The position numbers and the translations under genes were made by a program. The notes under the pieces are model-generated. The model ran no database searches and was not told the origin of the DNA. It worked only from the letters and a program-made list of their open reading frames with translations. From assembly GCF_016717175.1 (NCBI RefSeq), contig NZ_JADKFZ010000004.1: a DNA stretch of 64,000 bases; one strand, given 5' to 3'. Source of the stretch: Nannocystis sp. Its GTDB lineage: Bacteria; Myxococcota_A; Polyangia; Nannocystales; Nannocystaceae. Of the stretch, positions 6,662 through 60,959 are shown piece by piece (the first letter of the stretch is position 1; the number at the start of each line of letters is the position of its first letter).

Positions 6662-9600
6662 ATGCGGCGGTCCATGCGACGTCCTGCACCCCGTAAGGCC
6701 GCGAGGCTCCGCCGCGCGGCGCTCCGTGCAACCGCCACCTTCGGCCTCGGCCTGAGCCTCCTGGCCTTCGGGACAGCCGAGGCCGCGCCCGCAGCTGGGC
6801 CCGCGTCGGCACCCGTGTCGGCACCCGTGTCGGGCTCTGGCGTCGCGCCGCCTTCTGCGGCCACGCCTGGCGCCGCGACGCTGTGGACGCCTGGCATCCG
6901 CGACGCCGCCCACCCGGGCCGCTTCGTCCGCGAGTTCGCCCGGCGCAAGGCCCTGCTGCGCGCCCCCGGTCCCGAGGCGGTGCTGGCACTGCTCGGCGCG
7001 ATGGTCGAGCTGCAGGGCGAGATCCCCGGCCTCGAGATGGCGGCCTTCCTCGACGGCGCCCGCAAGCACCGCGAGCCGCTGGTCGCCAGCCACGCCGGCT
7101 ACCTGCGCGCGCAGCTCGAGGAGGCCCGCGGCGATCAGGCGCGGGCCACCGCGATGTACCGCGCCGAGGGCTTCGTGCTCGACTGGCAGATCGTCGGCCC
7201 CTTCGAGAACACCGGGCGAGCCGGTCACGCAGCCGTCTACGCCCCCGAGACCGATCCCTTCTCCGCCGGTCAGAGCTTCGTCGGCAAGCTGCCCGGCGAG
7301 CCGCTGGTGTGGCGCCGCTTCGTCCACGAGCAGGCCCCGCGCGGCGCCTTCATCAACCTCGCCGACCTGCTCGACCCGCCCGAGCAGGCCGTCGGCTACG
7401 CGACCGTGTGGGTCAAGGTCGATCGGCCTGGTCGCGCCGCGCTGCACCTCGGCACCAGCGGCGCCTACAAGGTCTGGCACGACGGCGTCCTGGTCGGCAG
7501 CGACGACACCTACCGTACGCCGACGCCGCTGCAGGCCAGCCACGCGCTCGAGCTGCGCGCGGGCTGGAACCGCATCCTCATCAAGCTGGCCACCGACGAC
7601 GGCATGTGGGGCTTCTACGCCCGGCTCAGCGCCCCCGACGGCCGCCCGCTCGCCGGTCTGGTGAGCACCCTCGAGCCGCAGTCGACGCCCGTGTCGCCTG
7701 GCGCGAAGGACAGGTCCGTTAGCACAGGTCCGAAGGGACAGGTCGCAAAGGCCAGCCCCGGCGCGGGCGGCGTCGCCAGCAGCCCGGTCGGCGTCGGCCG
7801 CCCCGGCGCGGGCGGCGTCGCCAGCAGCCCGGTCGGCGTCGGCCGCCCCGGCGTGCGCAGCCTGCGGGCCGCGCTCGAGGCGAAGGGGCAGGGGCCGCGC
7901 GCGCGCCCGGCCGACCGCCTCGCGCTGGTCGAGTTCTACCGCTGGACCTTGCCGTTTGCCCGCGAGGACCGCAGCGCCGTCGACCGCGCCCGCGAGGCCG
8001 ACAGCGCGCTGGGCACCGCTCGCAGCGCGTACCTGCTGGCGACCCTCGACCCCGACCAGAACAACAGCCGCGTCGCCCTGCAGCGCGCCGTCGAACGCGC
8101 CCGCGCTGAAGGGTCCGGCTCCCGGGAGGGCGGCGCCCCGCTGCTGGCCACGCTCCTGGTCGAGCTCTCGCTGCGCGACCGTTACCTCGGCCTCGAGTCG
8201 CGGGCGCGGGCGCTGCTCGACGAGGCCTTCCGCACCGCGCCCGACGACGTCATCGTCGAGCTCGCGCTGGCCGAGCGACTCTCGGAGGACGGCTTCCCGC
8301 TGGCCGCGCTGGCCTGGGTCGGCGACATGCAGCGGCGCTACCCGGACTCGGCGATCCTGGCCCGTCAGCAGGCCGAGCGGCGCATGAACCTCGGCCGCAC
8401 CGAGGAGGCGCTGCAGATCCTCGGCACCCTGCAGGGCGCCCAGCCGACCGACCTCGGCGTCGCCGCGGAGATGCAGGACGGCCTGCTCCGGCTCGGCCGC
8501 GCCGACGAGGCGGTGGCGATCGCCCGCGAGCGCGTGCGTCTGGTCCCCGGCCTGCCCGAGAGCCACCGCGCCCTGGCCCGCTTCGAGGAGGCCCGCGGCG
8601 ACCTCGCGGCCGCCCGCGCGGCGATGCAGCGGGCCGCCGATCTGGCCCCGCACGACGCCGACATCCACGCCCAGATCGGCCGCCTCGCCGCGCGCGCGGG
8701 CGACGTCTCGGCCGCGATCCAGAGCGTGCGCCGCTCGCTCGAGCTGCGCCCGCAGCAGCCCGACCTCCGCGACTTCCTGGCGACCCTCGACCAGGGCGCG
8801 CGCGACGACCTGCTCGCCCGCTACCCCGTCGACCTCGAGGAGCTCGCGGCCATCCCGACACCGGCGGCGTGGAAGGGCAAGGACGCCGGCATTCTGCTCG
8901 CGCGCACGGCCGTGCGCGTGCTCCCCAACGGCCTCAGCGAGCGCCTCGACCACCGCGTCATCCGCGTGCTCGACGACCGCGGCATCCGCTCGCAGGCGAT
9001 GCAGGGCGTCGTGTTCGACCCGGCCGAGGCCTACGTCGAGGTCCGCCGCGCCCGCGTGCGCCGGGCCGAGGGCGGGGTCGAGGAGATCGGCGACGCCAGC
9101 GTCGTCGCCCTCACCGACGCCGGTTACCGCATGTTCTACGACCAGCGCCAGCAGCGGGTCACCTTCAACGGCCTGCGCGTGGGTGACACCCTCGAGGTCG
9201 CGTTTGTCCGCCGGGACACCGCGGCGCGCAACAAGTTCGACGACTACTTCGGCGAGATCGCGGCCCTCGAGGACGTGCTGCCGCAGCGCCGCCGCGAGTA
9301 CATCCTCGAGGCGCCGGCGGGGCGCAAGCTGTACTTCAACCAGCCCGTCGAGGCCAGCCCCGGCAAGGAGCCCGGCACGACGCTCTACAAGCTGGTGGTC
9401 GGCGAGCGCAAGGGCATCCGCCCCGAGGCCAACATGCCCGGCTGGACCGAGATCGCCAAGTACCTCCACGTCAGCACCTTCGCCGACTGGGACGCCGTCG
9501 GTCGCTGGTACTGGAACCTCGTCAAGGAGCAGCTGGTCGTCGACGCCAAGATCCGCGCGGCCGTCAACGAGGTCCTGCTCGGCCTGCCCGAGGGCGCCGA

Positions 9601-13600: not shown

Positions 13601-14516
13601 GGCCGGCCTGCGCGCGGAGCTGTGGATCGCCCGCGACAACTTCGGCGCCGACATCAAGCCCGGCGGCAACCCGCTGTTCGAGTCCTACGATTCGCCCTAC
13701 CTGGCCGTTTGGACAGGTGAGGGCGAGACCCCGACGATGGTCATCACCGGCTCCAAGGTGCTGCCGCTCGGCTACCTCGTGCCCGGCCTCTCGGGCGCGG
13801 CCGGCTTTCGCATCCCGCTCAGTGAGAGCGACAAGGCGCCCGGCGCCGTGCGCTTCCCGGTCCGGCCCGCCGCGCTCGCGGACCGCCGCAGCTACCGCGT
13901 CCGCCTCGAGCTCGGCCGCGACGGCAGCGGCCGCGTCGAGGGCAGCATCGAGCTGCAGGGCATGGAGGCCGCGGCCTGGCGCGACGTGCTGCGAAACCTC
14001 GACCGCGACCGCATCAACGACGGCTTCGAGCGGGCCGAGCTGTCGGTGCTGTTCCCCGGCGCCACGGTCGAGCTCGCGGACCTGCAGATCGAGCAGGAGA
14101 AGCAGCTGGACGCCCCGCTGCGCCTGATCTTCCAGGGCGGCATCCGCGGCGCCGTGGTGGCCCAGGGCGGCGAGCTGCTGATGCGCGCCGCGACCGTGCC
14201 GCTCAACGTCGGCCTCGGCTACACGGCGCTGCCCGAGCGCAAGACCGGCTACGCGATCCCCTACGCGCCGTTGCTCGATGCCGAGGTGACGATCCAGATC
14301 GCCGGGGCCAAGTTCACCGGCACGCCCAGCGCCGAGACGATCGACACGCCGCAGGGCAGCTACCACCGCAGCGTCGAGGTCGGCGCGGAGGGCCTGACCG
14401 TGCGCACGCGTGCGACTCTCGGCACCGGCGTGTTCGGCCCCGAGGTCTACCCCGCGCTCGCCAGCCTGACCCGCCGGGTCAAGGCCGCCGAGGACCAGGT
14501 CATCCGCGCCCGCTGA
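10665..14516 (+). CDS. Paralog of the upstream TPR/DUF3857/transglutaminase-like protein; the transglutaminase-like core lacks the catalytic Cys
   Basis: Same overall architecture (1283 aa, TPR-rich middle, C-terminal DUF3857/TGase-like region), starting 8 bp after the previous gene. The core motif reads LSARKGSGMILLKTMLREAGLRAELWIARDNFG, where the catalytic Cys is replaced. Signal or lipobox: LPAC. Confidence 0.85.
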   Translation: MSFPSAPVLRAMLSFAAIAAPISLPACKHKAETTQAPFTADAARQRAAELERQLVKQPQDDVAALELANLQWLHLRATAKALPTFDRLAARGNPYAQVARMIIADARLDLVTVRSMAHALIKGAAAAPGLAPADVAERAALAELGARYIGENHGELPDDDLDFTRFFAEVERLPLPVAVTQPLLSQRASIARRLDQPYLAYYEAQGCVRAWQVGKVEGHLEAFELRRAAADPAAFELDPQAVLTPLSCVVRTWNPTPRAGMRRMRSYLDVPGEQLTLNISSQEAVRVYLDGAPIHRSDRSDRWPRGDNTLELKLQPGIHRLDVHTAVPREKVWVLVRATDHRGQAVPASVEAKGPLAPAFTGQPVRPRSPFFPYAQGPIAGPSYAPLRMLLAASDAMADANSDDAEGFIKALRHAGPNFAEGELLVAAFETGDPTRDRSTSTARQRAAIERALAIDPGLARARIRLLEMGLERGETSEVLDAVTALGDKALRNVPGELLRYQAYLARGNEFQSDAALARAAAIHPEHCAVLKAQRVVAQRRGDVAAEDALSAKVETCPGTTGTRARLAARRGRRDEARALYKKLLERTPDDVDVMAELAELAISEDKLDEALGYRRKILGLNPYATSMHVAIADLQARMGDPAAARASVGEALVRVPQSMAMWQVAQNIGIPDDLEALRVDGLPIVAAYRAGKHDHAGVGEVLVLDRSVTRVYPDGSQRHIIHTITELRSKEAIDRYGEIEPREGTRTLTLHSIKADGRVFEPESIPEKDGLSLRGLQIGDFVEYEFMFEREELGLLPGYVDLSTFRFQSPETPFHISEMIVAYPSDMPLKAELRAGAPQAVVTRLAAVAGLAAGAGQGELTVQHWRVDRSPRLGVEPQMRNSLFEVPNVRVYSDVDTAAWLSALGLRIYTGQRSNLELRQLTRKLIAGKTSPRARLEALHRWVVENVEEVGELTVPATLTLSARKGSGMILLKTMLREAGLRAELWIARDNFGADIKPGGNPLFESYDSPYLAVWTGEGETPTMVITGSKVLPLGYLVPGLSGAAGFRIPLSESDKAPGAVRFPVRPAALADRRSYRVRLELGRDGSGRVEGSIELQGMEAAAWRDVLRNLDRDRINDGFERAELSVLFPGATVELADLQIEQEKQLDAPLRLIFQGGIRGAVVAQGGELLMRAATVPLNVGLGYTALPERKTGYAIPYAPLLDAEVTIQIAGAKFTGTPSAETIDTPQGSYHRSVEVGAEGLTVRTRATLGTGVFGPEVYPALASLTRRVKAAEDQVIRAR

Positions 14517-16540: not shown

Positions 16541-16590
16541 GCTCACCTGTCCCTGGAGACAGGCACCAATCGCCTGTCCCTGGGGACAGG
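16541..16590. repeat. Two adjacent copies of a short palindromic element (CCTGTCCCTGGRGACAGG) in an intergenic spacer
   Basis: cacctgtccctggagacaggcaccaatcgcctgtccctggggacaggtg. Each copy has 6-7-bp inverted arms CCTGTC/GACAGG. It sits between the 5' end of 15858..16490 and the 3' end of the DUF1552 gene. Confidence 0.8.
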
Positions 16591-28500: not shown

Positions 28501-28547
28501 TGGTGCCTCTTTGAGTGGCGCTCAGACGCCTTGCGTTACAGTGCGAT

Positions 28548-30399
28548 TCACGGGGTGGGTGGTGTCGCGCCTGCGGGGTCCTGAAGCGACACTCCCACGG
28601 TGCGCGAGAGCGAGGCCAGCGCGACGTTCTGGGCATGGATGGACTCGAAGTGCTTGAAGCGCCACTCGGCCCAGCGGGTGAGCGCCCTCTCGAGGTCGGT
28701 GAAGTTGCCGCCACCGACGGTCTGCTTGAGCTGTTGGTCGATGACCAGCTGTTTGGCCTTGCGGATGGCGCTGGCAGTGAGCTTGACCGCTTGTTCGGCT
28801 TCGAGCAGGTCGCGGTAGGCCTTCTCGACCTCGAGCGAGAGCAGCAGGTTCGCTGCCTCACGCTGGGCCTCCGCCTCGCGGCGCTCGGCGCGGGCCTTCT
28901 TCAGGTTGAAGGCCTGGTTGTGGAAGTCGAGGGTCCAGTTGAGGGCGAGGGCGAGGACCAGGCGGCTGTAGTTGAAGCGGTCCTGATAATACAGGGCGCG
29001 CATGTCGCGGTCGGCCTTGTTCGAGAAGGCGATCTGCACCGAGGCGACGACGCCGAGGTCGGGGAGGAACATCGAGCGGGCGAACTTCTCGCCGGCCTTG
29101 CGGAGATCGACCAGACCGGCGGCCATCTTGGCCTCGGGGCGGGCCTTGAGACCGAGATCACGGTAATGGTCGACCGGTTTGAGGCCGCCCGCGACGCGGT
29201 CCGTGAGCAGGTCGCGCTCGCTGACATCGAAGCCGGGCGGGGCGGCCTCGCCGGCGATCGTCCACAGGGTCGCGAGGGCGACGGCCTCGATCTTGCGGGC
29301 CGCGTTCATGCGCTCCTGCAGGGTGAGCTCGCCGAGCTCGACGCGGATGAGGTCGGCGGGGTCGCGGTCGGGGTTGGCCTCGTCGGGGTCGGCGTCGTCG
29401 CCCTCGCCGAGCTCCTTCGCGATCTGCCGCTTTGCGTCCTGCAGGACCGACCAGGCCTCGTGCAGGATGCCGATGCTGCCGCGCGCGAGCAGGAGGGCGG
29501 TGTGGGCCTGATAGACGCGGAGGATGGTCTCCTGGCGGGCGCGCTCCTTGGCGAGCTGGGCCAGGGCGACGCCGGCGCGGGCCATGGCCTTGCCGTTCTT
29601 GATCTTGCCGAAGGTGTAGAGGGGGACGACGAAGTCGGCGTTGAAGCGGACGGTGACGCCGGCGCCGGCGAGCTGCTTGAAGTAGCCGCCGACGGTGTCG
29701 ATGTCGACGCCGCCGGGCGGGCGGCAGAACTGGAAGTCGATCGGCGTCGTTGTGCCGAGCGCGTCGCTGGCCGGGAGGGTGAGGTCGTCGCAGCGGGTCT
29801 GGAAGCCAGGCGCGAGCGCGGTGGTGGTCTTGATCACCGGGACCCAGGCAAAGCGGGCCTTGAGCAGGACGGCCTCGAGCTGCTCGACCTGGGCGTCGGC
29901 GGCGCGGATCAGCGGGTTCTGCAGGCCGAACTCGACGATCTGGGCCCGGCTGAGCTGAGGGACGCCGTCGGGGCGCGGACCGTAGGCGTCCATGCGGCGG
30001 GCGGGCGGGAGCTCGAAGAGGTCGGCCGGGGCCTGGGCGCCCGCGCTGCTGCGGGTGCTGAGGACCGGGGTCGCGGCGGTGGTGGCGGGCTTGCTGTCCT
30101 TGGGGACAGGTGTCGCGGTGGTGGGGTTGCTGTCCTTGGGGACAGGGTCGCGGTGCGGGGTTGCTGTCCTTGGGGACAGGTATTGCGGTCGGGTTGGGGA
30201 CAGGTGTCGCGGCGGGGTTGCTGTCCTTGGGGACAGGTGTTGCGGCGGGGCTGCTGTCCTTGGGGGCAGGTGTCGCGGGTGCCGTGGCCGGCGCGGGCCT
30301 GGCGGGGGCGGCGGAGGCGACGAGGGGCGAGCCTGCGAGCAGCGCGGTGAGCAGGTGCCCGAGACGGCACGAGCGCAGCGCTGGGGTCTGCCGTGGCAC
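28548..30399 (-). pseudogene. TolC-family outer-membrane efflux protein, split by a frameshift inside a tandem-repeat array (or a sequencing error in that repeat)
   Basis: A signal peptide plus PVPKDSNPAATP repeats read in one frame (ORF 29158..30399, good for ~85 aa). The TolC body is in the adjacent frame (from ...PVPKDSNPTTATPVPKDSKPATTAATPVLS... to the end, with alpha-helical/beta-barrel repeats such as FNYSRLVLALALNWTLDF). One repeat copy near 30150 has a 1-nt indel relative to its neighbours (gacagggtcgcgg versus gacaggtgtcgcgg). Confidence 0.6.
30101..30290. repeat. About five to six tandem copies of a ~35-bp repeat (gttgctgtccttggggacaggtgtcgcggyggg), each containing the CTGTCC-TTGG-GGACAG palindromic element
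   Basis: Seen directly in the sequence. It encodes the PVPKDSNPAATP repeats of the TolC N-terminus on the minus strand. The copies are imperfect, with indels. Confidence 0.85.
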
Positions 30400-31496: not shown

Positions 31497-31500
31497 GGCG

Positions 31501-31660
31501 GCTGTCCGCGGGGACAGGGGCGGGGGGACGGGCTGGCCGCGGGGACAGGTGGGGGGCGGGCGGGGGGCGGGCTGGGCTGGCCTCGGGGACAGGTCGGGCG
31601 AGCGCTCGCGCTTGCCGGCGCGGTGGGCTGTCCTTGGGGACAGGTCGGATCAGGCGAGGA
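31501..31660. repeat. Intergenic cluster of about four copies of the GGGGACAGGT / CTGTCC...GGACAG element
   Basis: gctgtccgcggggacaggggcgg ... gccgcggggacaggtgggggg ... cctcggggacaggtcgggcg ... gctgtccttggggacaggtcgg. It sits between the convergent 3' ends of the ygfZ-like gene and hpnE. Confidence 0.8.
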
Positions 31661-32984: not shown

Positions 32985-32991
32985 GGTGGAG

Positions 32992-33909: not shown

Positions 33910-33922
33910 CGTTGGGTCCGCG

Positions 33923-35055: not shown

Positions 35056-38401
<3,346 letters not shown>

Positions 38402-41206: not shown

Positions 41207-42243
41207 GGTACCCGGTGGCCGTGCAGGCGGACGTGGATGAGCTCGCACAGGAAATCCTCGAAGCGGATGTCGGCCGCGGCGAGGGCCTTGCGGAAGCCGG
41301 AGCCGGGGCCGATGTCGGGGTTGGCGTTGATGTCGATGATGTTGATGCGGCCGTCGGGGCCGCGGCGGAGGTCGAAGCGGCAGTAGCCGCTCATGCCGAT
41401 CATGCCGGCGACGTGGCGGCAGGTGGCGTTGATCTCGGCGAGCAGGGTCGGGTCGAGGCTGTGGGCGATGCGGCTCTCGGTGCTGATGTCCTCGACGGAG
41501 CCGATGTTCCACTTGGCCTGCCAGCCGACGACGCGGGCCTCGGGGGCGAGGCCGGGGGCGAACACGATCTGGCCGGGCGGGAGGGCGACCATGCCCTGCT
41601 GGCTGGCGTAGAGGGCGAGGTTGTACTCCTCGCCGTCGATGAAGGCCTCGACCAGCGCGGGCTGCTGGTACTGGGCCCAGACGGCGTGGCAGCGGGCGAG
41701 CGCTGCGGCGGCGCTGCGGACGACGCCGGTGGCGTCGACGCCGATGCCGCCGTCCTCGCGGATCGGCTTGACGATGACGCGGCCGGAGGGGGCGCGGCGC
41801 AGCATCGCGTCGATGTCGGCGAGGATCTGTCCTTCGGGACAGCCAGGGGCGACGGCGAGGCCCTCGGGGGTGGCGACGCCGAGCTGGCGCAGGAGCTGCT
41901 TGATGAGGCCCTTGTCCTGGGTGAGGGCGATGGTCACCGCGTCGCAGCCGCAGTACGGGATGCCGAGGAGGTCGAGGGCGAGGACGAAGTGGGCCTCCCA
42001 GCGGGTCCGGCCGAGCACGCCCTCGCACAGGTTGAACACGAGGTCGGGGGCGTAGTCGCGGATCGCCAGGAGGGCCCCGGCGATGCAGTCGCCGACGGGG
42101 AACAGCTCGCAGTGGTGGTGCTGCGCGAGCGCGGCGTGGACGTCGAGCGCGGACTCGGCGACCTCGTCCTCGCCGAGGCGTTCGACCTCGTTGAGGTGCG
42201 GCTTGAGGTGGGTGTCGGCGTTGTAGGTGATGGCGATCTTCAT
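41188..42243 (-). CDS. D-alanine--D-alanine-ligase-family ATP-grasp enzyme
   Basis: MKIAITYNADTHL... has Ddl-like N- and central domains. The ATP-grasp motifs read GRVIVKPIREDGGIGV ... EEYNLALY ... CRFDLRRGPDGRINIIDINANPD. Start is placed at MKIAITY (ATG 42243). Confidence 0.8.
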   Translation of the reverse strand: MKIAITYNADTHLKPHLNEVERLGEDEVAESALDVHAALAQHHHCELFPVGDCIAGALLAIRDYAPDLVFNLCEGVLGRTRWEAHFVLALDLLGIPYCGCDAVTIALTQDKGLIKQLLRQLGVATPEGLAVAPGCPEGQILADIDAMLRRAPSGRVIVKPIREDGGIGVDATGVVRSAAAALARCHAVWAQYQQPALVEAFIDGEEYNLALYASQQGMVALPPGQIVFAPGLAPEARVVGWQAKWNIGSVEDISTESRIAHSLDPTLLAEINATCRHVAGMIGMSGYCRFDLRRGPDGRINIIDINANPDIGPGSGFRKALAAADIRFEDFLCELIHVRLHGHRVPWASAA

Positions 42244-47494: not shown

Positions 47495-48913
47495 GTGAGG
47501 CTGTGGGCGCGCGTGGGCGCGCGGGAACTTTCGCCGCGGGCTGGCCTCTCACGCGGCATGGCTCGCCCGCTCCCGCCCGTCGCTGCGCTCGCCGAGGTCG
47601 CCGTCAGCCTCGGCGGGACCTTGCTGGACGTCCGCCACATCGGCCGCGGGGCGGAGGCTTCCCCGTGGTCGCCGTGGCTGCCGCGCTACACGCTGGGCGA
47701 GGGCCCGCAGGCGCAGCTGCCGGTGGCGCTGGCGGGTTGCGACGCGCGCGGCTGCTTCACCCTGGTCGAGGCGGCGGGGCCGGCGATCTGTCTGCGCCTG
47801 GCGCCCGCGATGCTGGGCAGCGTTCGGCGGGGCGGGGCGGAGCTCGCGGTCGCGGAGCTGCTGGCGCGCGGCGAGACGACGCTGCTGCTGGTGCCGGGCG
47901 AGGGGGCGACGCTGCAGATCGGGGCGATCGAGGTGGCGCTGCGGGTCGAGGCGGCGACGCCGGTGCAGCGCTTCCGGGCCCAGCTGGAGCGGCCGCTGTG
48001 GCTGGCGCAGGCGGGGGCGATGGCGCTGTTCGCCGTGCTCATGGTCGTGGTCCAGCGGGCCGAGCCGAGCGCTGCGCCGGGCTTCGACGATCCCGAGGTG
48101 CAGGCGACCTTGATCCGCTACATGACGCCGCGCGACGAGGTGGTGCCGTCGGCGGCGCCGAGCCTGCCGACGCGGGTCGCGGCGGTAGCGACGGCGAGCC
48201 CGGTGGTGCCGGTGCCCGCGGCGAGCGAGGCGGCGAGCGAGGTGGTCGCCGGTCCTTTAGGACATGACCCGGAGGACATGGCGCGAAGGTCAGGTATCTT
48301 CAGCGTCGGGGACTTCCTGGCGGCGATCGAGCAGGGTCACAAGGACGCGCGGGCGTCGATGGCCCGCTACGCGGTGTTCGCCGGGGAGACGGCGGTGTGG
48401 GCCAAGGAGGCGGCGAAGCTCCCGCTCCAGCGCGGCCTCGAGCTGGTGGGCACGGGGCGGCAGGGCGGCGGTCTGGCGCGCGAGGTGGTCGACGTCGAGA
48501 TCGGGCTGATCGCCCAGCTCGACGAGCACGGCCGGCGGCGATGGGGCGGCGGGAAGCGGGCGGCGAAGGAGGCCTTCGCTAGCCGCGACCCGGCGCCGGC
48601 GCCGGAGCGGCGCACCAGCGTGGTGTGGACGGCGAGCGTGGGTCGCGACCTGATCCGCGGGGTGGTCAACCGCCACAAGCCGGAGGTGCGCCAGTGCTTC
48701 CGCGAGGGCATGACCCGCGACCCGGGGCTGCGCGGCGAGGTCGAGGTGGCGTTCACGATCCAGGGCGACGGCAGCGTGGCCTACCCGGCGATCGCTCGCA
48801 GCACGGTGAACGATGTGGCGGTCGACGAGTGCGTGACGGCAGCAGTGAAGCGCTGGCGCTTCCCGGTGTTCGTGGCCAGCGGCGGCGACGTCGACGTGCG
48901 CTTCCCGGCCTGA
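47495..48913 (+). CDS. Membrane protein with an AgmX/PglI-like C-terminal domain
   Basis: A TM helix (LWLAQAGAMALFAVLMVVV), Pro/Ala-rich linkers, and the C-terminus LIRGVVNRHKPEVRQCFREGMTRDPGLRGEVEVAFTIQGDGSV...CVTAAVKRWRFP are present. The start codon is uncertain (47495 or 47558). Confidence 0.6.
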   Translation: MRLWARVGARELSPRAGLSRGMARPLPPVAALAEVAVSLGGTLLDVRHIGRGAEASPWSPWLPRYTLGEGPQAQLPVALAGCDARGCFTLVEAAGPAICLRLAPAMLGSVRRGGAELAVAELLARGETTLLLVPGEGATLQIGAIEVALRVEAATPVQRFRAQLERPLWLAQAGAMALFAVLMVVVQRAEPSAAPGFDDPEVQATLIRYMTPRDEVVPSAAPSLPTRVAAVATASPVVPVPAASEAASEVVAGPLGHDPEDMARRSGIFSVGDFLAAIEQGHKDARASMARYAVFAGETAVWAKEAAKLPLQRGLELVGTGRQGGGLAREVVDVEIGLIAQLDEHGRRRWGGGKRAAKEAFASRDPAPAPERRTSVVWTASVGRDLIRGVVNRHKPEVRQCFREGMTRDPGLRGEVEVAFTIQGDGSVAYPAIARSTVNDVAVDECVTAAVKRWRFPVFVASGGDVDVRFPA

Positions 48914-51461: not shown

Positions 51462-54125
51462 ATGGTAAGGGCCGCGATGGGGCGGGCGCGGTGGGCGGTG
51501 ATCGGGCTGCTGCTGGCGGGCCTCGGCGGCGTGCTGGCGTGGCTGTGGCTCGGCGCGCCGCCGCCGGTGATCGAAGGCGGGAGCGAGGCCAGCGAGGGCG
51601 GCGAGGCGGGGGCGCCCGCGGTGGTGCTGGCGCCGCAGCGGCGGGTGCTCGGGCGGGTGCTGCTCGAGAGCCTGGCTGTCGGGACAGGTCCTGAGGGACA
51701 GGTTGAAAAGGACAGCCTGGACGCGGGCCCGCTGACGCCCCCGCCGCTCGGGCAGTGCACGGCGCGGGCGTGGCGGGCGGAGAAGCTGCTGGCGGAGGCG
51801 AGCTGCGCGGCGGATGGGAGCTTCGCGCTGGCGCTGGCGGTGACCGAGGCGGTGGTGGTCGAGATGCTGGTGCCGGGGCGGCTGCGGGCGGTGCTGACGA
51901 CGCCGGCGACCGACGCGGACGTGCAGCTGCCGACGGTGGCGCTGGGGCTGGCGTCGTCGCTGCGCGGCGAGGTGATCGACGGGCAGGGGCGAGCCGTGGC
52001 GGGGGCGGAGGTGGCCGCGCTGCCGCTGCCGAACCTGGGCGAGCCGGAGCCGTGGCGGGTGACGAGCGCGGCGGACGGGAGCTTCCTGCTCGACACGCTG
52101 CCGGAGGGGCCGATCCGGCTGCGCACGAGCAAGCCCGGGCACGCGCTGACGATCCGCGACGCGTACGCGCCGGAGGCCGGGGTGGTGATCGTGCTCGACG
52201 AGCTGCTCGGGTTGACCGGGGCCGTGATCGGCGAGCCGAAGATAGCGGCGCGGGCGAGGGTGCGGCTCGAGGGCTCGTCGCTGTGGCCGCCGGTTTATCA
52301 GCGGGTCGCGGCGGACGGGAGCTTCGCGTTCACCGAGCTGGTCGACGGGGTCTACGGGCTGGTGGCGACGGTCGAGGCGGAGGCGCCGGGCGATCAGGAG
52401 TACGCGTCGATACCGCTCGAGAACCTCGGCGCGGGCACGGAGGTCGGGCTGGCGCTGGCGCTGGCGTACCGCATCCCGGTGCGGGTGATCAGCCCCGACG
52501 GGGCGCCGGTGGCGGGGGCGCGGGTGACGGTCGGCTACGCGAGCGTGGGGCTGTTGCAGCAGGTCGGAGAGACAGGTCCCGAAGGACAGGTGGCGATCGG
52601 TCCGATCGTGCCGGGGCCGTATGTCGTGAGCGCGGACGCGGACGGATACCTGCCGAGCGAGGCGATCCAGGTCGACCTGGGGGCCACGCCGCTGCCGACC
52701 CAGACCTTGACGCTGCTGCGGCCGGGGCGGATCGCGGGGATCGTGGTCGACGAGCGCGGGCAGCCGGTGGTCGCGGCGAGCGTGGTGGTGGACAGCGAGC
52801 AGCTGTACAGCGTGGGCGAGGGCTCGGCGCGGGCGGGGACCTTCACGGCGCTGCTGCGCGGCGGGAGCCTCGGGGTCACGGGCGGGACGGTGCCGCCGAT
52901 CCCGCTGACGGCGCTCGCGGGCGGGCTCGCGGACGCGGGCGAGGTGACGGGGCTGATGGCGGAGAGCGACGAGGCGGGGCGCTTCGCGCTCGAGCTGCTG
53001 CTGCCGGGGACCTACCGGCTGCGGGCGGTGCACGGGCTGCACGCGGCGTCGCCGGTCGCGGTGGTGACGCTGGCGCCGGGGCAAGCGCGCGAGGGGGTGG
53101 TGCTGACGCTGGGCCGCGGGGTGCACGTCACGGGGCGGGTCTTCGATGGCAACCGGCGGCCGCTCGCGGGGGTGCGGGTCGAGCTCGGCGACGGCAGCGA
53201 GGTGCTGACCGACGCGTTCGGGGTGTTCGATGCGGGTTATCGGCGCGGGCGGGAGCGGCTGGTGCTGCGCCGGGCGGGGCTGATCCCTGAGGTGGTGGAG
53301 CTCGATCTGGGGCGCGAGGACGTGGTGATCGAGCGGCTGATGCAGCCGGCGGAGGGCGAGCTGACCGGGCGGATCCGCGGGGGCAACGATCAGCCGCTGG
53401 CGGGGGTGCGGGTGACGCTGACGCCGAAGGACGGGCTGACGGCGACGCAGGTCGGGTGGACCGACGAGCGCGGGCTGTTTGAATTCACGGACCTGGCCCC
53501 GGGGACAGGTGCGCTGGAGTTCGACCACCCGGACTACGCGCCGGGGCAGCGGTCGGTGAAGGTGGCGCGCACCCGCGGCGGGGCGCCGGTCGAGGTCTCG
53601 CTGGTGGCGGGGTGGTCGCTGGCGCTGAGCGTGCGGGCGCGCGGGAGCGGCGATCCGATCGCGGGGGCGCGGGTCGAGGTCGACGAGCGGCTGTGGTCGA
53701 CCGACGAGGCGGGCGAGGCGGAGGTGCGGCGCCTGGCCGGCGAGCGGGTGCGGGTGGTGGTGCGGGCGGGCGGCTGGGTGGCGCAGAGCGAGCTGATCGA
53801 GCGGCCGGCGAGCGGGGCGGCGACGCTGGTGTTCGAGCTCGACGAGGCCGCGGGGATGGAGGGCGAGATCACGGACGAGCGCGGCGAGCCGGTCGGCGGG
53901 GCGCGGGTGCTGGTCCGCAGCGCGGACGGGTCGACGCTGCTGGCGGAGGCGAAGACGACGGCGGACGGGCGTTGGTCCGTGCCCGACCTGCCCGAGGGAG
54001 ATGTGCGCGTCGAGGCGATCCCACCGCCCGCGCTGGCCGAGATCCTGGCGCCCGTGGCCATGGACTCGGATGTGCGCCGCGGACACGTGACGCGGGAGGT
54101 CGATCTGCGCTTCGATCGGTTATGA
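51462..54125 (+). CDS. Large protein built from tandem carboxypeptidase-regulatory-like (CarboxypepD_reg / Ig-like) repeats
   Basis: An N-terminal TM/signal (WAVIGLLLAGLGGVLAWLWL) is followed by at least eight repeats of the pattern G.V.D..G.PVAGA.V.V........ADGSF.L/RF.L. Two copies of the CTGTCC/GGACAG element are embedded in frame. Confidence 0.75.
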   Translation: MVRAAMGRARWAVIGLLLAGLGGVLAWLWLGAPPPVIEGGSEASEGGEAGAPAVVLAPQRRVLGRVLLESLAVGTGPEGQVEKDSLDAGPLTPPPLGQCTARAWRAEKLLAEASCAADGSFALALAVTEAVVVEMLVPGRLRAVLTTPATDADVQLPTVALGLASSLRGEVIDGQGRAVAGAEVAALPLPNLGEPEPWRVTSAADGSFLLDTLPEGPIRLRTSKPGHALTIRDAYAPEAGVVIVLDELLGLTGAVIGEPKIAARARVRLEGSSLWPPVYQRVAADGSFAFTELVDGVYGLVATVEAEAPGDQEYASIPLENLGAGTEVGLALALAYRIPVRVISPDGAPVAGARVTVGYASVGLLQQVGETGPEGQVAIGPIVPGPYVVSADADGYLPSEAIQVDLGATPLPTQTLTLLRPGRIAGIVVDERGQPVVAASVVVDSEQLYSVGEGSARAGTFTALLRGGSLGVTGGTVPPIPLTALAGGLADAGEVTGLMAESDEAGRFALELLLPGTYRLRAVHGLHAASPVAVVTLAPGQAREGVVLTLGRGVHVTGRVFDGNRRPLAGVRVELGDGSEVLTDAFGVFDAGYRRGRERLVLRRAGLIPEVVELDLGREDVVIERLMQPAEGELTGRIRGGNDQPLAGVRVTLTPKDGLTATQVGWTDERGLFEFTDLAPGTGALEFDHPDYAPGQRSVKVARTRGGAPVEVSLVAGWSLALSVRARGSGDPIAGARVEVDERLWSTDEAGEAEVRRLAGERVRVVVRAGGWVAQSELIERPASGAATLVFELDEAAGMEGEITDERGEPVGGARVLVRSADGSTLLAEAKTTADGRWSVPDLPEGDVRVEAIPPPALAEILAPVAMDSDVRRGHVTREVDLRFDRL

Positions 54126-57174: not shown

Positions 57175-57185
57175 GCGGCTGTCTG

Positions 57186-57207
57186 CGGGGACATGTCCCC
57201 GCAGACA
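57186..57207. repeat. Perfect 22-bp palindrome CTGCGGGGACATGTCCCCGCAG between convergent genes; a member of the GGGGACAKGTCCCC element family, possibly a bidirectional terminator
   Basis: It is its own reverse complement. Two more ACATGT(G/C) half-sites follow within 35 bp. It lies in the 78-bp gap between the prkA stop (57174) and the stop of 57253..57909. Confidence 0.8.
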
Positions 57208-57252
57208 TGTGCTCACAGACATGTCCGAACAGGCATACGGCGTCCAACAAAT

Positions 57253-58615: not shown

Positions 58616-58710
58616 GTGGTGTGGGGTCCTCGGGCTGCACTACGGGGCGGGCGGGGAAAGGTGACAGGGGCGGGTCGCGGGCGCGGGTCGGGGGTCGCGG
58701 GCGCTCGGGG

Positions 58711-58860
58711 TGGACATGGCCCTTGGGTCAGGTGATGTGCCGCTCGCGGGCGCGCGGGATAGACATGTCCCTTGGGTCAGGTGGTGCGGCGCTCGCGGGC
58801 GCGCGGGATAGACATGTCCCTTGGGTCAGGTGGTGTGGCGCTCGCGGGCGCGCGGGTGTG
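58711..58860. repeat. Three tandem ~50-bp repeats, each carrying a variant of the palindromic element (GACATGTCCCTTGGGTCAGGTG), directly upstream of the CHAT-SIR2 gene
   Basis: [tg]gacatg[gt]cccttgggtcaggtg[ag]tg[ct]g[gc]cgctcgcgggcgcgcggga occurs three times with about four substitutions. Confidence 0.85.
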
Positions 58861-58895: not shown

Positions 58896-60959
58896 GTGGT
58901 GATGGCGAGCGCCGAGTGTGCCGATCTCGAGGTGAGCCTGACGCGGCGGGACGCGGGCCTGTACGCGATCGAGATGCGCTTCACGCAGCCGGGCAGCGAG
59001 GCGGACGTGCGCCTGGAGACCGGGGCCGGGGAGGCGGCGATGGCCCACATCGACCTGGCGGCGCTGCGCGAGCAGCTGCTGGACGCGGACGCGTATGGGG
59101 CGACGCTCGGGGCGGCGCTGTTCGGCTCCGCGGCGGCGGCGGCGATGTACGCCCGGGCGGAGGCGACGGCGCAGGAGCTCGGGACGCCGCTGCGGCTGCG
59201 GCTGGCGATCGGGGCCGACGCGCCGGAGCTGCACGCGCTGCGCTGGGAGACGCTGCGATCGCCGGCGGGGGCGCGGCTGGTGGCGAGCGAGCAGGTGCAG
59301 TTCTCGCGCTACCTGAGCAGCGCGGACTGGCAGGCGGTGCGGCTGCGGCCGCAGACCGAGCTGCGGGTGCTGGTGGCGATCGCCAACCCGGCGGGGCTCG
59401 GCGAGTACGGGCTCGCGGCGGTCGATGTCGAGAGGGAGTGGAACGGGGTGCGCGAGGCCCTGGGGGCGCTGCAGATCGCGGCGCTCAAGGAGCCGGGCGA
59501 GGCGACGCTCGACCGGATCACGGAGCAGCTGCGCGGTGGCATCGACGTGCTGTACCTGGTGTGCCACGGGACCTGGCAGCGGGGGGCGTCGTGGTTGTGG
59601 CTCGAGGACGCGGAGGGGAAGATCGATCGCGTCGGCGGCGAGGCGCTGGTGGAGCGCATCGCGGGGCTTGGCACCCGGCCGCGGCTGGTGGTGCTGGCCT
59701 CGTGCGAGGGCGCGGGCGCGGGTCAGACGCACGGGGCCGAGGGCGAGGCGATGGCGGCGTTGGGGCCGAGCCTGGCGCGCGCGGGGGTGCCGGCGGTGCT
59801 GGCGATGCAGGGGACGATCAGCGCGCAGACGGTGAGCGTGCTGATGCCGAAGTTCTTCGCCGAGCTGCGCCGCGAGGGCCAGGTCGACCGGGCGCTGGCG
59901 CGGGCGCGGGCGGCGGTGCAGGACCGCCGCGACTGGTGGATGCCGGCGCTGTTCATGCGCCTGCGCAGCGGGAGGATCAGCTACACGCCGGGCTTCGGCG
60001 GCGATCGCTCGAGCTTCGAGAAGTGGCCGGCGCTGCTGCAGAGCATCAAGGCCGGGCGCTGCACGCCGATCGTCGGGCCGGGGCTGGCGGAGCCGCTGCT
60101 CGGGGGCTCGCGCGAGCTGGCCCGCCGCTGGGCCGAGACCTACCACTACCCGCTGGCCGGTGACCGCGAGGATCTGCCGCAGGTGGCCCAGTACCTGGTG
60201 GTCCATCAGGATCCGAACTTCCCGCGCGACGAGCTCGAGAGCAGCCAGCGGACGGTGCTGCGCGAGCGCTTCCCGCTGGCTGTCCCGAAGGACATGTGGG
60301 AGGCGCCGCTGGACGAGCTGCTGGTGAAGGTGGCGGCGTGGCGGCAGGCCCAGGGCGAGCAGGACTCGCACGCGACGCTGGCCGCGCTGCCGCTGCCGAT
60401 CTTCGTCACGACGGCGGTCGATCGCCTGCTCGAGCACAACCTGGAGGCGCGGGGCAAGGCGCCGAACTCGGCGGTGTGCGCGTGGCAGGGCGAGGTCGAG
60501 GCGGAGGCGGGCGCCGGCGCGGAGCTGCGGCCGGACCCGCAGCGGCCGCTCGTGTACCACCTGTTTGGCCGGCTCGACGCGCGCGACGCGATGGTGCTGA
60601 CGGAGGACGACTACTTCGACTTCTTGATCGGCGTGACCGGCAACCGCGACCTGATCCCGGTGACCGTGCGGCGGGCGCTGGCCGACACGGCGCTGCTGTT
60701 CCTCGGCTTCCACATGGAGGACTGGAACTTCCGCGTGCTGTTTCGCAGCATCATGAGCCAGCAGGGCGGCGGTCGGCGCAAGCGCTACGCCCACATCGCG
60801 GCGCAGATCGATCCGGAGCAGGGGCGGGCCGTGGACATCGAGCGGGCGCGGCGGTACCTCGAGGAGTACTTCGACGAGGCGGACATCACGATCTACTGGG
60901 GCAGCGCGGAGGACTTCCTCGCGGAGCTGCGAGGTCGCCTCGAGGGCAAGGCGACGTGA
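58896..60959 (+). CDS. CHAT-domain (caspase-like protease) protein fused to a C-terminal SIR2-like (SIR2_2/PF13289-type) domain
   Basis: The CHAT His/Cys dyad is present: IDVLYLVCHGTWQ and RLVVLASCEGAG. The SIR2_2-like motifs are CTPIVGPGLAEPLL (GAGxS-like), PIFVTTAVDRLLE (TTNYD-like, with Asn replaced by Ala), PLVYHLFGRLDARDAMVLTEDDYFDF (KLHGS...lteeDY-like) and ALLFLGFHMEDWNFRVLF (LFIGYSL.D-like). Confidence 0.8.
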   Translation: MVMASAECADLEVSLTRRDAGLYAIEMRFTQPGSEADVRLETGAGEAAMAHIDLAALREQLLDADAYGATLGAALFGSAAAAAMYARAEATAQELGTPLRLRLAIGADAPELHALRWETLRSPAGARLVASEQVQFSRYLSSADWQAVRLRPQTELRVLVAIANPAGLGEYGLAAVDVEREWNGVREALGALQIAALKEPGEATLDRITEQLRGGIDVLYLVCHGTWQRGASWLWLEDAEGKIDRVGGEALVERIAGLGTRPRLVVLASCEGAGAGQTHGAEGEAMAALGPSLARAGVPAVLAMQGTISAQTVSVLMPKFFAELRREGQVDRALARARAAVQDRRDWWMPALFMRLRSGRISYTPGFGGDRSSFEKWPALLQSIKAGRCTPIVGPGLAEPLLGGSRELARRWAETYHYPLAGDREDLPQVAQYLVVHQDPNFPRDELESSQRTVLRERFPLAVPKDMWEAPLDELLVKVAAWRQAQGEQDSHATLAALPLPIFVTTAVDRLLEHNLEARGKAPNSAVCAWQGEVEAEAGAGAELRPDPQRPLVYHLFGRLDARDAMVLTEDDYFDFLIGVTGNRDLIPVTVRRALADTALLFLGFHMEDWNFRVLFRSIMSQQGGGRRKRYAHIAAQIDPEQGRAVDIERARRYLEEYFDEADITIYWGSAEDFLAELRGRLEGKAT

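What the first reader, a model, noticed from the sequence alone, without database searches (positions are those of the whole stretch)
31501..31660. A short GC-rich palindromic element family (CTGTCC-N3-4-GGACAG / GGGGACAKGTCCCC) present between genes and inserted in frame into unrelated CDSs
The same ~18-25-bp inverted-repeat element recurs at least ten times in 64 kb. Intergenic copies are at 16547-16588 (x2), 31501-31660 (x4) and 57186-57207 (a perfect 22-bp palindrome). A variant sits inside the 3x50-bp array at 58711-58860. Nearly identical copies also sit inside coding regions without breaking the frame. One is at 7708-7747 in the transglutaminase-like gene (encoding KDRSVSTGPKGQV). Two are at 37102-37119 and 37157-37174 in the PMK part of the fusion gene (RDHLSSRTGP twice, on the minus strand). 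Two are at 51679-51718 and 52569-52592 in the CarboxypepD_reg protein (TGPEGQV twice). Five to six are in the TolC N-terminus (30101-30290). In-frame, nucleotide-level-conserved palindromes inside unrelated proteins resemble Rickettsia palindromic elements or REP/BIME-like elements. I do not know of such an element in Myxococcota. One copy is associated with the TolC frameshift.
Basis: seen in the sequence. Interest (0 to 1): 0.7.

Follow-up and report, generated by a model that had tools for sequence, protein, structure and literature searches.

The report
Short palindromic repeat family in Nannocystis
A 16-base palindrome (CTGTCC-N4-GGACAG) recurs through this Nannocystis genome and its close relatives, mostly just after gene ends but also inside genes; it resembles the REP hairpin repeats of other bacteria, and the two copies inside genes that I could compare with relatives are old native sequence, not insertions.

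Summary
CTGTCC-N4-GGACAG occurs 10 times in the window against 0.04 expected. The 14-bp core TGTCC-N4-GGACA occurs 13 times perfectly and 30 times with at most one mismatch (expected 1.0). The spacer is always 4 nt. The G-rich strand reads GGGGACAGGT.

An exact 18-mer scan of one genome per species for 185,579 species returned 30 loci. Twenty-three are from seven Nannocystis/Nannocystaceae genomes.

Intergenic copies mostly lie within 2-60 nt of a stop codon and favour convergent gene pairs (8 of 27 such gaps; p=0.0025). Copies multiply locally into spaced arrays or abutted 14-bp chains.

About half the loci lie in coding sequence. Thirteen of 14 ascertained coding copies share one strand and frame, encoding PVPKD[S/R].

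The two coding sites I could test against orthologues are not insertions. The TolC copies belong to an old PVPK[A/D]S linker repeat that keeps rare codons across species. The PMK copy occupies native residues and is duplicated only here.

Best reading: a REP/BIME-like hairpin family, apparently undescribed. A 3'-end RNA hairpin role is inferred, not shown. A cognate DNA-binding protein or a USS-like drive remains possible. The RPE-style insertion reading is not supported.

The parts
16547..16589 (+). Doublet 9-36 nt after the stop of the DUF1552 gene (16598-18511, minus strand). It has one copy with 1 mismatch (16547-16562) and one perfect copy (16574-16589), 27 nt apart. Together they can fold into a long hairpin.
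   Evidence: The fold is -39.8 / -38.9 kcal/mol, z -5 to -6. The same doublet is in L052. L054 has 3 copies and L057 has 1.
30081..30278 (+). Tandem array with a 33-36 bp period in the N-terminal linker of the TolC-like gene (minus strand). It has 4 perfect copies (30094, 30130, 30164, 30221), one with 1 mismatch (30254) and one right half only (about 30194-30205). It encodes TPVPKDSNPAA repeats. The 34-bp unit at 30130-30163 shifts the reading frame.
   Evidence: Orthologues have 3 units (L029; L034). PVPKAS versions occur in L035-L041.
31502..31643 (+). Spaced array of four copies filling the gap between convergent genes (GCV_T-like gene ending at 31496, plus strand; amine-oxidase gene ending at 31650, minus strand). 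The perfect copies (31502-31517 and 31628-31643) lie 6 and 7 nt from the two stop codons. The middle copies (31533-31548 and 31577-31592) have a CTGGCC left arm. Spacers are G-rich.
   Evidence: The orthologous gap in L029 has 7-8 copies. L036, L037 and L039 carry period-14 chains there, and L035 has none.
37104..37173 (+). Two perfect copies (37104-37119 and 37158-37173), 54 bp apart, inside the PMK part of the PMK/HMG-CoA-reductase gene (minus strand). They encode RDHLSSRTGP twice and result from a 54-bp tandem duplication.
   Evidence: Homologues have one segment, with a perfect palindrome in L031, one mismatch in L032 and none in L033.
41827..41842 (+). Single perfect copy inside an ATP-grasp (D-Ala-D-Ala-ligase-like) gene on the minus strand, read as GCPEGQ. 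Its flanks do not match the family consensus.
53493..53508 (+). Single copy with a CTGGCC left arm (CTGGCCCCGGGGACAGGT) inside the CarboxypepD_reg gene on the plus strand, read as LAPGTG.
13701..13716 (+). Single copy with a CTGGCC left arm (CTGGCCGTTTGGACAGGT) inside the TPR-protein gene 10698-14516.
9205..9218 (.). Perfect 14-bp core TGTCCGCCGGGACA inside the transglutaminase-like gene.
7704..7760 (+). Period-14 chain (GGTCC-N4-GGACA units) in a hypervariable inter-domain linker of the transglutaminase-like gene. Each unit is read in a different frame (KDRSVSTGPKGQVAKAS).
   Evidence: A homologous 4-unit chain, including CTGGCC-GCGG-GGACAGGT, is in orthologue L050.
48251..48278 (+). Two abutted units (GGTCCTTTAGGACA and TGACCCGGAGGACA) inside the TonB_C-domain gene 47558-48913.
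51670..51715 (+). Period-14 chain of about 3 units near the N-terminus of the CarboxypepD_reg gene, read as LAVGTGPEGQVEKDS.
52561..52602 (+). Period-14 chain of about 3 units (one with at most 1 mismatch) inside a CarboxypepD_reg domain, read as GETGPEGQV.
57180..57235 (.). Period-14 chain of four abutted units between convergent genes (57174 end, plus strand; 57253 end, minus strand). The first two units form a perfect 28-bp palindrome (57180-57207) with GGACATGTCC junctions.
   Evidence: The fold is -27 to -28.5 kcal/mol, z about -3.
58695..58856 (+). A 49-bp unit repeated 3.3 times in a divergent intergenic region. Each unit contains GACATGTCCCTTGGGTCAGGTG, a core with 1 mismatch plus a GACATGTC junction.
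60280..60295 (-). Copy CTGTCCCGAAGGACAT (perfect 14-bp core) in the plus-strand gene 58896-60959. It is read as AVPKDM, the same frame as PVPKDS.
63853..63871 (.). Perfect core TGTCCTTTGGGACA followed by a GGACATGTCC junction, inside the gene 60956-64000.

Best explanation
What it is (shown). This is a family of very short palindromic repeats. Outside Nannocystis and unnamed Nannocystaceae relatives, the exact 18-mer occurs only at chance level, and the window is from a Nannocystis sp. assembly. The unit is C-TGTCC-N4-GGACA-G, with a fixed 4-nt spacer. It is asymmetric: on the G-rich strand it reads GGGGACAGGT, while the left arm is looser (CTGTCC, often CTGGCC).

How it multiplies (shown by copy-number differences between orthologues; the mechanism is inferred). 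Copies multiply locally by tandem duplication of the unit plus its spacer. This gives spaced arrays with periods of about 22-52 bp, or abutted chains with a 14-bp period. I infer slipped-strand duplication at the hairpin as the mechanism.

What it does (inferred). Intergenic copies sit immediately after stop codons, preferentially between convergent genes. They most likely act as REP elements do, as hairpins at the 3' ends of transcripts that stop read-through or block 3' exonucleases. This genome shows no hairpin-plus-U terminators at these gene ends.

Copies inside genes (shown for TolC and PMK). These are not insertions. They sit in tolerant linker segments or in native residues. They are restricted almost entirely to the strand and frame that encodes harmless PVPKD[S/R]. 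They are held at the nucleotide level against codon bias. This means the sequence itself, and not only the fold, is recognised or otherwise favoured. How copies reach new loci is unknown.
For: Enrichment and specificity:
- 10 hits against 0.04 expected, and 30 cores against 1.0 expected.
- CTGTCC is the commonest hairpin stem, and the spacer is always 4 nt.

Taxonomic restriction:
- 23 of 30 exact 18-mer loci across all species come from 7 Nannocystis/Nannocystaceae genomes.
- None occurs in 21 kb of Pseudenhygromyxa or in the distant GCV_T loci L043-L047; L042 has one 1-mismatch core.

Position relative to genes:
- Elements occupy 8 of 27 convergent gaps, 6 of 88 tandem gaps and 2-4 of 30 divergent gaps. 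Fisher p = 0.0025.
- Densities are 2.4, 0.44 and 0.21 loci per kb of those gap types, against 0.09 per kb of coding sequence.
- In 5 of 6 tandem gaps the element lies in the first 16% after the stop.
- No canonical terminators were found at gene ends in 14-34 kb.

Folding:
- A single unit folds at -8.9 kcal/mol. The doublet folds at -39.8 kcal/mol, z = -5.

Positional conservation with turnover:
- TolC linker and convergent gap, window against L029.
- DUF1552 gap with 1, 2 or 3 copies, showing C-G, U.G and U-A at the innermost pair on the sense strand.

Coding copies:
- 13 of 14 ascertained copies share one strand and frame (p = 9e-10).
- NNA CCT rare codons are kept in 25 of 28 and 26 of 28 TolC-linker copies from 9 loci. 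The background for A- and T-ending codons is 2.0% and 2.9%.
- The PMK palindrome lies in homologous residues.
Against: - There is no direct evidence that transcripts end at, or are stabilised by, these hairpins.
- The commonest variant (CTGGCC...GGACAG) does not fold better than shuffled sequence (z = -0.13), yet it recurs. Sequence is therefore conserved more than structure.
- Compensated stem changes are few: 7 of 68, of which 4 are the chain-type A-T end pair. The remaining 3 of 64 are not significant.
- About half the loci are inside genes, and those copies are conserved. A purely 3'-UTR role does not explain this.
- The unit is shorter than any REP I know of and lacks a GTAG head.
- Gene calls come from my own GC3-based caller. 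The loci were ascertained on one exact 18-mer, which fixes the TTGG loop and the GGT flank in those copies.
Confidence: 0.45

Rival explanations
1. The palindrome is a binding site for a sequence-specific dimeric DNA-binding protein, such as a nucleoid, segregation or occlusion type factor (compare Noc/ParB sites), or a regulator with CRP/FNR-like 5-N4-5 geometry. The motif works wherever it lies in the DNA. It accumulates in convergent gaps and protein linkers only because those places tolerate it.
For: - The N4 spacing is strictly fixed.
- The arms are conserved as sequence, with almost no covarying stems.
- The CTGGCC half-site variant persists although it destroys the hairpin.
- Abutted period-14 chains resemble cooperative operator arrays.
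- The nucleotides are conserved inside coding sequence against codon bias.
Against: - Copies are strongly stop-proximal within tandem gaps and scarce in divergent, promoter-bearing gaps.
- The element is asymmetric (GGT on one side only), which a symmetric dimer site would not need.
- No candidate protein has been identified.
Confidence: 0.2
2. It is a true REP family that is copied to new sites by a REP-associated tyrosine transposase (RAYT) acting on the single-stranded hairpin plus an adjacent short motif.
For: - It is a lineage-specific sequence family lying at 3' ends and between convergent genes, in clusters.
- The conserved flank is strand-specific and lies next to the hairpin (GGACAG-GT).
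- The G-rich form lies on the G-rich strand in 16 of 16 strongly skewed loci. It lies on the presumed leading strand at the three N. punicea sites, if that record starts at the origin.
Against: - The unit is only 16-20 nt and has no GTAG head.
- No insertion with clean borders was seen in any orthologous comparison.
- The PMK copy appears to have arisen in place.
- No Y1-transposase domain was found among the Pfam-scanned window genes.
- The orientation rule can be explained by composition acting on the unconstrained loop and flank.
Confidence: 0.12
3. It is an uptake-signal-like or otherwise drive-generated motif, comparable to Neisseria DUS, Pasteurellaceae USS or cyanobacterial HIP1. Copies arise by point mutation anywhere and are fixed by a biased process such as uptake or repair.
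For: - It arose in place within native codons.
- Coding copies lie in poorly conserved segments and in one favoured frame.
- The same sequence occurs across the genus.
- Paired copies sit at gene ends.
Against: - The half-site alone is at background. Nearly every GGACAGG(T) has a left arm at N4.
- Density is far lower and more uneven than for USS or DUS. Only 3 exact 18-mers occur in the 13.2-Mb N. punicea genome.
- A palindromic uptake signal has no precedent that I know of.
Confidence: 0.08
4. It is ordinary coding sequence plus chance. PVPKDS is a peptide motif of secreted-protein linkers, and the palindrome is a by-product of preferred codons (GTC CCC AAG GAC).
For: - VPKD written in preferred codons automatically gives GTCC-N4-GGAC.
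- The TolC linker repeat is old at the protein level.
- Many coding copies follow signal peptides or lipoboxes.
Against: - More than half the loci are intergenic.
- Other frames occur (HLSSRT, GCPEGQ, LSLGTG, TGPxGQV).
- The 6-8 bp arms need the rare codons NNA CCT, which are kept at about 90% against a 2-3% background.
- Observed 10 against 0.04 expected.
Confidence: 0.03
5. It is an RPE-like mobile element that inserts in frame into genes.
For: Nucleotide-level copies lie inside unrelated genes without breaking the frame.
Against: - Orthologues carry homologous sequence at the same sites, with no clean extra segment.
- The unit is about ten times shorter than an RPE.
- The length differences seen are local tandem duplications.
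Confidence: 0.03

Closest known systems
REP / BIME elements of Enterobacteria and Pseudomonas (RAYT-associated repetitive extragenic palindromes)
   Same: It is a lineage-specific short palindrome family. It lies just after stop codons, especially between convergent genes or within operons. It forms clusters and arrays. Positions are conserved while copy number turns over. A role as a 3' mRNA hairpin is plausible.
   Different: The unit is 16-20 nt rather than about 20-40 nt. It has no GTAG head. Arrays are same-orientation tandem duplications, each with a locus-specific spacer, or abutted 14-bp chains, rather than alternating REP orientations. About half the loci lie inside coding sequence and are conserved there. 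RAYT association was not tested.
DNA uptake sequences (Neisseria DUS, Pasteurellaceae USS)
   Same: The sequence is identical across the genus. Copies arise in place. Coding copies sit in weakly constrained segments and in favoured frames. Inverted copies lie at gene ends.
   Different: The unit here is always the palindrome, and single half-sites are not enriched. Density is much lower and uneven among species. No link to competence is known.
Rickettsia palindromic elements (RPE)
   Same: It is a palindromic repeat found inside unrelated protein-coding genes without disrupting them.
   Different: RPEs are roughly 100-150 bp inserts that are absent from orthologues. Here the sites are 14-16 bp, homologous across orthologues, and expanded only by local duplication.
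HIP1 (GCGATCGC) of cyanobacteria
   Same: It is a very short exact palindrome over-represented in both genes and spacers of one lineage. It is maintained at the nucleotide level for an unknown reason.
   Different: HIP1 is an 8-bp palindrome with no spacer, is far denser, and is not concentrated at gene 3' ends.
U-tract-less ('I-shaped') hairpin terminators reported in high-GC bacteria (from my own knowledge)
   Same: It is a GC-rich hairpin directly after the stop codon with no U run.
   Different: Those hairpins have no shared sequence. Here one specific sequence is reused, including variants that no longer fold.

Membership tests
REP/BIME (RAYT-associated) | Imperfect palindrome of about 20-40 nt that forms a stem-loop | tested here: inconclusive
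   The unit forms a 6-7 bp stem with a 4-nt loop, at -8.9 to -11.9 kcal/mol. At 16-20 nt it is shorter than described REPs. The CTGGCC variant folds no better than shuffled sequence.
REP/BIME (RAYT-associated) | Located near gene 3' ends and between convergent genes | tested here: met
   Elements occupy 8 of 27 convergent gaps against 8 of 118 other gaps (p = 0.0025). Most copies start 2-60 nt after a stop.
REP/BIME (RAYT-associated) | Extragenic: essentially absent from coding sequence | tested here: not met
   About 25 copies at about 18 loci lie in predicted coding sequence. The TolC, PMK and transglutaminase-like cases were confirmed with homologues.
REP/BIME (RAYT-associated) | Conserved GTAG-like tetranucleotide head next to the hairpin | tested here: not met
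   There is no GTAG. The only conserved flank is GT 3' of GGACAG on the G-rich strand.
REP/BIME (RAYT-associated) | A cognate Y1 transposase (RAYT) gene, usually flanked by REPs | not testable with these tools
No transposase domain was found among the Pfam-scanned window genes, but RAYTs are single-copy.
Rickettsia palindromic elements | Element of about 100-150 bp | tested here: not met
   The unit is 14-16 bp.
Rickettsia palindromic elements | In-frame insert that is absent from orthologues | tested here: not met
   Orthologues carry homologous sequence at the TolC, PMK and transglutaminase-like sites.
Uptake signal sequences (DUS/USS) | Asymmetric 9-12-mer abundant as single copies in both orientations | tested here: not met
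   GGACAGGT occurs 17 times on the plus strand and 2 on the minus. Nearly all copies have a left arm at N4. The bare 6-mer half-site is near shuffle level once palindromes are removed.
Uptake signal sequences (DUS/USS) | Coding copies in favoured frames and weakly conserved segments | tested here: met
   13 of 14 copies share one frame and strand. Copies lie in hypervariable linkers.
Uptake signal sequences (DUS/USS) | Biased DNA uptake by a competence system | not testable with these tools
   Needs an experiment.
Intrinsic (Rho-independent) terminator | GC-rich hairpin followed by a U tract | tested here: not met
   The hairpin is present but is followed by GGTG, GGTC or similar. No terminator-like site coincides with an element in 14-34 kb.
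Operator of a dimeric regulator (CRP/FNR-type 5-N4-5 geometry) | Inverted repeat with fixed spacing | tested here: met
   The spacer is 4 nt in 53 of 53 copies.
Operator of a dimeric regulator (CRP/FNR-type 5-N4-5 geometry) | Placed in promoter regions upstream of regulated genes | tested here: not met
   Divergent gaps are the least occupied at 0.21 loci per kb. Copies sit after stops.
Known RNA families (Rfam 15) | Match to a curated covariance model | tested here: not met
   No match at gathering score anywhere in the window.

The most novel reading that the evidence does not exclude
The palindrome is a genus-wide nucleic-acid signal read by a dedicated protein, either as double-stranded DNA or as an RNA hairpin. 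It is kept under selection, or by a drive, wherever it lies, including inside coding sequence. There it overrides codon bias and shapes linker peptides such as PVPKDS. That would make it a myxobacterial counterpart of uptake signals or Noc/ParB-type chromosomal sites, rather than a passive REP-like hairpin.
Probability: 0.25. Interest if true: 0.8.

Novelty: new variant of a known kind. Interest (0 to 1): 0.55.

Why it matters
- Short dispersed repeats have, as far as I could find, not been described for Nannocystis or other Myxococcota beyond older Myxococcus reports. This family would fill that gap and provide a marker for the genus.
- It shows a palindrome kept at the nucleotide level inside genes across species, against a 95% GC3 codon bias. 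That points to selection or a drive acting on DNA or RNA within coding sequence.
- The palindromes are hotspots of tandem duplication. Copy number differs between close relatives in a TolC-like gene, a mevalonate-pathway gene and several intergenic gaps. One odd-length unit breaks the TolC frame here, so the repeats affect gene integrity and annotation.
- If they mark transcript 3' ends, they would help define operons in genomes that lack canonical terminators.

Tried and rejected
- Rfam scan of the whole window found nothing.
- Literature searches for Nannocystis or myxobacteria with palindromic, REP or RAYT terms, and for the motif itself, returned nothing relevant.
- I looked for covarying stems. 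Almost none exist, so this is a sequence family and not a structure family.
- A scan for canonical terminators at the elements found none.
- Pfam scans of the window genes for a transposase found none.
- I considered a CRISPR-like array. I rejected it because the units are 16 nt, the spacers are 0-36 nt, and each array is a local tandem duplicate.
- I considered KOPS- or Chi-like polar oligomers because of the strand bias (17 against 2). I rejected this because almost every copy carries the inverted partner, which contradicts a polar signal.
- I considered MITE terminal repeats. I rejected this because there are no everted pairs at element-size distances, and all window copies share one orientation.
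- I could not separate replication-linked from transcription-linked orientation. Genes lie mostly on the C-rich strand, and the 'orientation' rests on loop and flank bases that composition alone could bias.
- I could not recover the source contig by exact protein look-up.
Full report

The flagged region 31501-31660 is the gap between two convergent genes. One is a GCV_T-like gene ending at 31496 on the plus strand. The other is an amine-oxidase gene ending at 31650 on the minus strand. The gap holds four copies of GGCTGKCC-NNGG-GGACAGGT.

Across the window, CTGTCC-N(2-6)-GGACAG occurs 10 times against 0.04 expected from dinucleotide shuffles. The 14-bp core TGTCC-N4-GGACA occurs 13 times perfectly (shuffles 0). 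It occurs 30 times with at most one mismatch (shuffles 1.0). Among all perfect 6-bp hairpin stems with 3-5 nt loops, CTGTCC is the commonest (10; the next stem has 5). This holds although CTGTCC contains two A/T pairs in a 72% GC sequence.

**2. Anatomy**

- The spacer is always 4 nt, in 53 of 53 copies in the window and Nannocystis loci.
- The element is not symmetric. On the G-rich strand the right half reads GGGGACAGGT and is strongly conserved. GGACAGGT occurs 17 times on the plus strand and 2 on the minus, against 0.8 and 0.4 expected.
- The left arm is looser. Almost every GGACAGG(T) has a left arm with at most 2 mismatches exactly 4 nt upstream.
- The commonest variant arm is CTGGCC (15 of 34 one-mismatch copies). 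It does not fold better than shuffled sequence (z = -0.13).
- A perfect unit folds at -8.9 kcal/mol. Two neighbouring units can pair with each other: 16540-16597 folds at -39.8 kcal/mol, z = -5.
- Compensated stem variants are rare. There are 7 among 68 two-mismatch copies, and 4 of those are the ATGTCC...GGACAT end pair. Without them the count is 3 of 64, which is not significant.
- So this is a sequence family more than a structure family.

**3. Three arrangements**

(a) Singles and doublets, often 25-27 bp apart (16547/16574; L007, L026, L027).

(b) Spaced tandem arrays in which the unit and a locus-specific spacer are duplicated together. Examples are TolC at 33-36 bp, PMK at 54 bp, the L029 gap at 33 bp and L018 at 52 bp.

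(c) Abutted chains with a 14-bp period, (TGTCC-N4-GGACA)n. These create GGACATGTCC junctions. When neighbouring loops are complementary they form long perfect palindromes, such as window 57180-57207 and a site in L039.

GGACATGTCC is enriched on its own: 2 sites in the window and 10 in the loci, against about 0.05 expected. Successive 14-bp units are read in different frames.

**4. Where else is it found?**

One scan for the exact 18-mer CTGTCCTTGGGGACAGGT over one genome per species (185,579 species) gave 30 loci. Twenty-three come from seven Nannocystis/Nannocystaceae genomes, including N. punicea FL3 and N. exedens DSM 71. By my rough estimate, the other seven are no more than chance would give for an 18-mer in 596 Gb.

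Away from the ascertained site, the flanks of these loci hold many further copies. No unit was found in 21 kb of Pseudenhygromyxa or in the more distant GCV_T loci L043-L047; L042 has a single 1-mismatch core.

The window is from a Nannocystis sp. assembly. One of its proteins is 100% identical to an NCBI 'Nannocystis sp.' protein on a 418-kb contig.

Abundance differs among species. N. punicea has only 3 exact 18-mers in 13.2 Mb. The window has 4 in 64 kb.

**5. Position relative to genes**

I called genes with my own GC3-based scorer. In the window plus 23 Nannocystis loci (231 kb, 86% coding), occupancy was as follows:

| Region type | Regions with an element | Loci per kb |
|---|---|---|
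| Convergent gaps | 8 of 27 | 2.4 |
| Tandem gaps | 6 of 88 | 0.44 |
| Divergent gaps | 2-4 of 30 | 0.21 |
| Coding sequence | about 18 loci | 0.09 |

Two of the four divergent cases are really the TolC N-terminus. Fisher's test for convergent against other gaps gives p = 0.0025.

Most intergenic copies start 2-60 nt after a stop codon. In tandem gaps, 5 of 6 lie in the first 16% after the upstream stop. No hairpin-plus-U terminator coincides with any element in 14-34 kb.

**6. Orthologous comparisons: intergenic sites**

L029 (Nannocystis sp. MAG_AAO_AS.74) is syntenic with window 27141-32887 at 84-88% identity. The convergent gap there has 7-8 copies with GAGG loops and other spacers. The flanking genes align almost perfectly.

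In more distant relatives, found through the GCV_T-like protein, the same gap carries period-14 chains in L036, L037 and L039. L035 has nothing there.

Downstream of the DUF1552 gene, orthologues at 98%, 86% and 83% identity have 2, 3 and 1 copies just after the stop. Two orthologues at 80% have none. One of these has a different downstream gene. The other has a different GC-rich palindrome plus a degenerate copy.

The innermost pair at this locus is C-G, U.G (four times), U-A and C.A on the sense strand. This is compatible with an RNA hairpin but is not statistically significant.

No comparison showed a clean insertion border.

**7. Orthologous comparisons: coding sites**

TolC-like gene:
- The signal-peptide frame and the body frame differ. 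The switch is in the 34-bp unit at 30130-30163.
- Orthologues L029 and L034 are in frame with 3 units.
- The linker repeat is old. It reads PVPKDS in the window, L029 and L034, and PVPKAS, PVPKVS, PVPRAS or xPKAS in L035-L041.
- In all these copies the codons are NNA CCT GTC CCN AAG G[A/C]C AGC. The preceding codon ends in A in 25 of 28 copies, and the Pro/Ala codon ends in T in 26 of 28. In these genomes A- and T-ending codons are 2.0% and 2.9%.
- So ACCTGTCC is conserved as nucleotides, even where the other arm (GGCCAG) no longer pairs.

PMK part of the PMK/HMG-CoA-reductase gene:
- The closest homologue (81% identity) has one VRDHLSSGTAT segment with a perfect palindrome.
- A 58%-identical homologue has YLSDRAG with one mismatch.
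- Another 58%-identical homologue has FLRGPRG with no palindrome.
- There is no length jump at the site. The window alone has an 18-residue duplication.

Transglutaminase-like gene:
- The chain lies in a hypervariable inter-domain linker of about 20-70 residues.
- A 76-80% identical orthologue has a homologous four-unit chain.

**8. Frame and strand of coding copies**

Of 14 coding copies ascertained only by the exact 18-mer, 13 are on the same strand and in the same frame. The mRNA reads A CCT GTC CCC AAG GAC AG and encodes PVPKD[S/R] (p = 9e-10). Non-ascertained variants keep the arms and vary the loop (PVPTDS, PVPRDR, AVLKDS, AVLEDM).

Other frames occur but are rare (HLSSRT, GCPEGQ, LSLGTG). 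Several copies follow signal peptides or lipoboxes. Others lie in parts of proteins that look like folded enzymes to me (for example a GH92-like and an EgtB-like protein; read from the sequences, not Pfam-tested).

**9. Orientation**

The G-rich form lies on the locally G-rich strand in 16 of 16 loci with |GC skew| of at least 0.075. Because about 70% of coding sequence lies on the C-rich strand, this also makes most copies antisense to the nearest gene.

I cannot separate three explanations for the orientation: replication, transcription, and simple composition acting on the loop and flanks.

**10. Interpretation**

Shown:
- It is a real, lineage-restricted, sequence-specific palindromic repeat family.
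- It multiplies by local tandem duplication.
- Positions persist over long periods while structure turns over.
- It is concentrated just after stop codons.
- Coding copies are native or linker sequence rather than inserts, and they are conserved at the nucleotide level.

Inferred:
- Intergenic copies work like REP hairpins at transcript 3' ends.

Unknown:
- How new loci arise.
- Why the sequence, rather than the fold, is kept inside genes.

The last point keeps two readings alive: a protein-binding-site reading and a USS-like drive reading. The RPE-like insertion reading and the plain-coding reading are both contradicted by the data.

**11. Caveats**

- Gene calls are my own.
- The 23 genome loci were ascertained on one loop and flank variant.
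- Samples are a few hundred kb, not whole genomes.
- Several tallies (orientation, distances) were made by hand.

Noticed in passing
window 38358-38394: A run of 37 consecutive G (poly-C on the coding strand) lies in the short gap between the mevalonate diphosphate decarboxylase-like gene and the mevalonate kinase-like gene of one minus-strand cluster.
   Followed up: no
window 34921-35050; 25777-25865; 47469-47500: Other G-rich tandem arrays occur with a similar look but different sequence. They are GTGCC-N5-GGCAC hairpins at a 33-bp period (3 units) at the 5' end of a squalene/phytoene-synthase gene, 11-mer arrays (GGTCAAGCAGC and GGGCCCGTAGG), and CGGGGTGAGGG repeated 3 times.
   Followed up: no
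window 1-64000; loci L007, L009, L010, L018, L024, L027: Strand asymmetry is very strong. GC skew is slightly negative before about 16 kb and +0.15 to +0.25 after it, in genes of both strands. Nannocystis loci reach |skew| of 0.24, and about 70% of coding sequence lies on the C-rich strand. No replication genes lie near the switch at about 16 kb.
   Followed up: partly
window 28548-30397, minus strand: The TolC-like outer-membrane efflux gene has its signal peptide in one frame and its body in another. The shift lies in a 34-bp repeat unit (30130-30163). Orthologues are in frame, so this is a pseudogene or an assembly indel.
   Followed up: partly
window 7750-7853: A 45-bp unit repeated 2.3 times at 98% identity lies right next to the period-14 chain in the same protein linker. 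Orthologues have quite different linker lengths and their own repeats.
   Followed up: partly
window 31650-40454, minus strand: An isoprenoid cluster is present: an HpnE-like amine oxidase, two squalene/phytoene synthase genes, phosphomevalonate kinase fused to HMG-CoA reductase in one ORF, diphosphomevalonate decarboxylase, mevalonate kinase, and an FMN-dependent dehydrogenase (IDI-2-like). The PMK-HMGR fusion recurs in Nannocystaceae homologues.
   Followed up: partly
window 6662-10657: The NCBI record annotates only a 613-residue 'tetratricopeptide repeat protein' that is 100% identical to part of this 1331-codon open frame. The open frame also carries DUF3857, transglutaminase-core and DUF3858 domains, so the deposited gene model may be truncated.
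   Followed up: no
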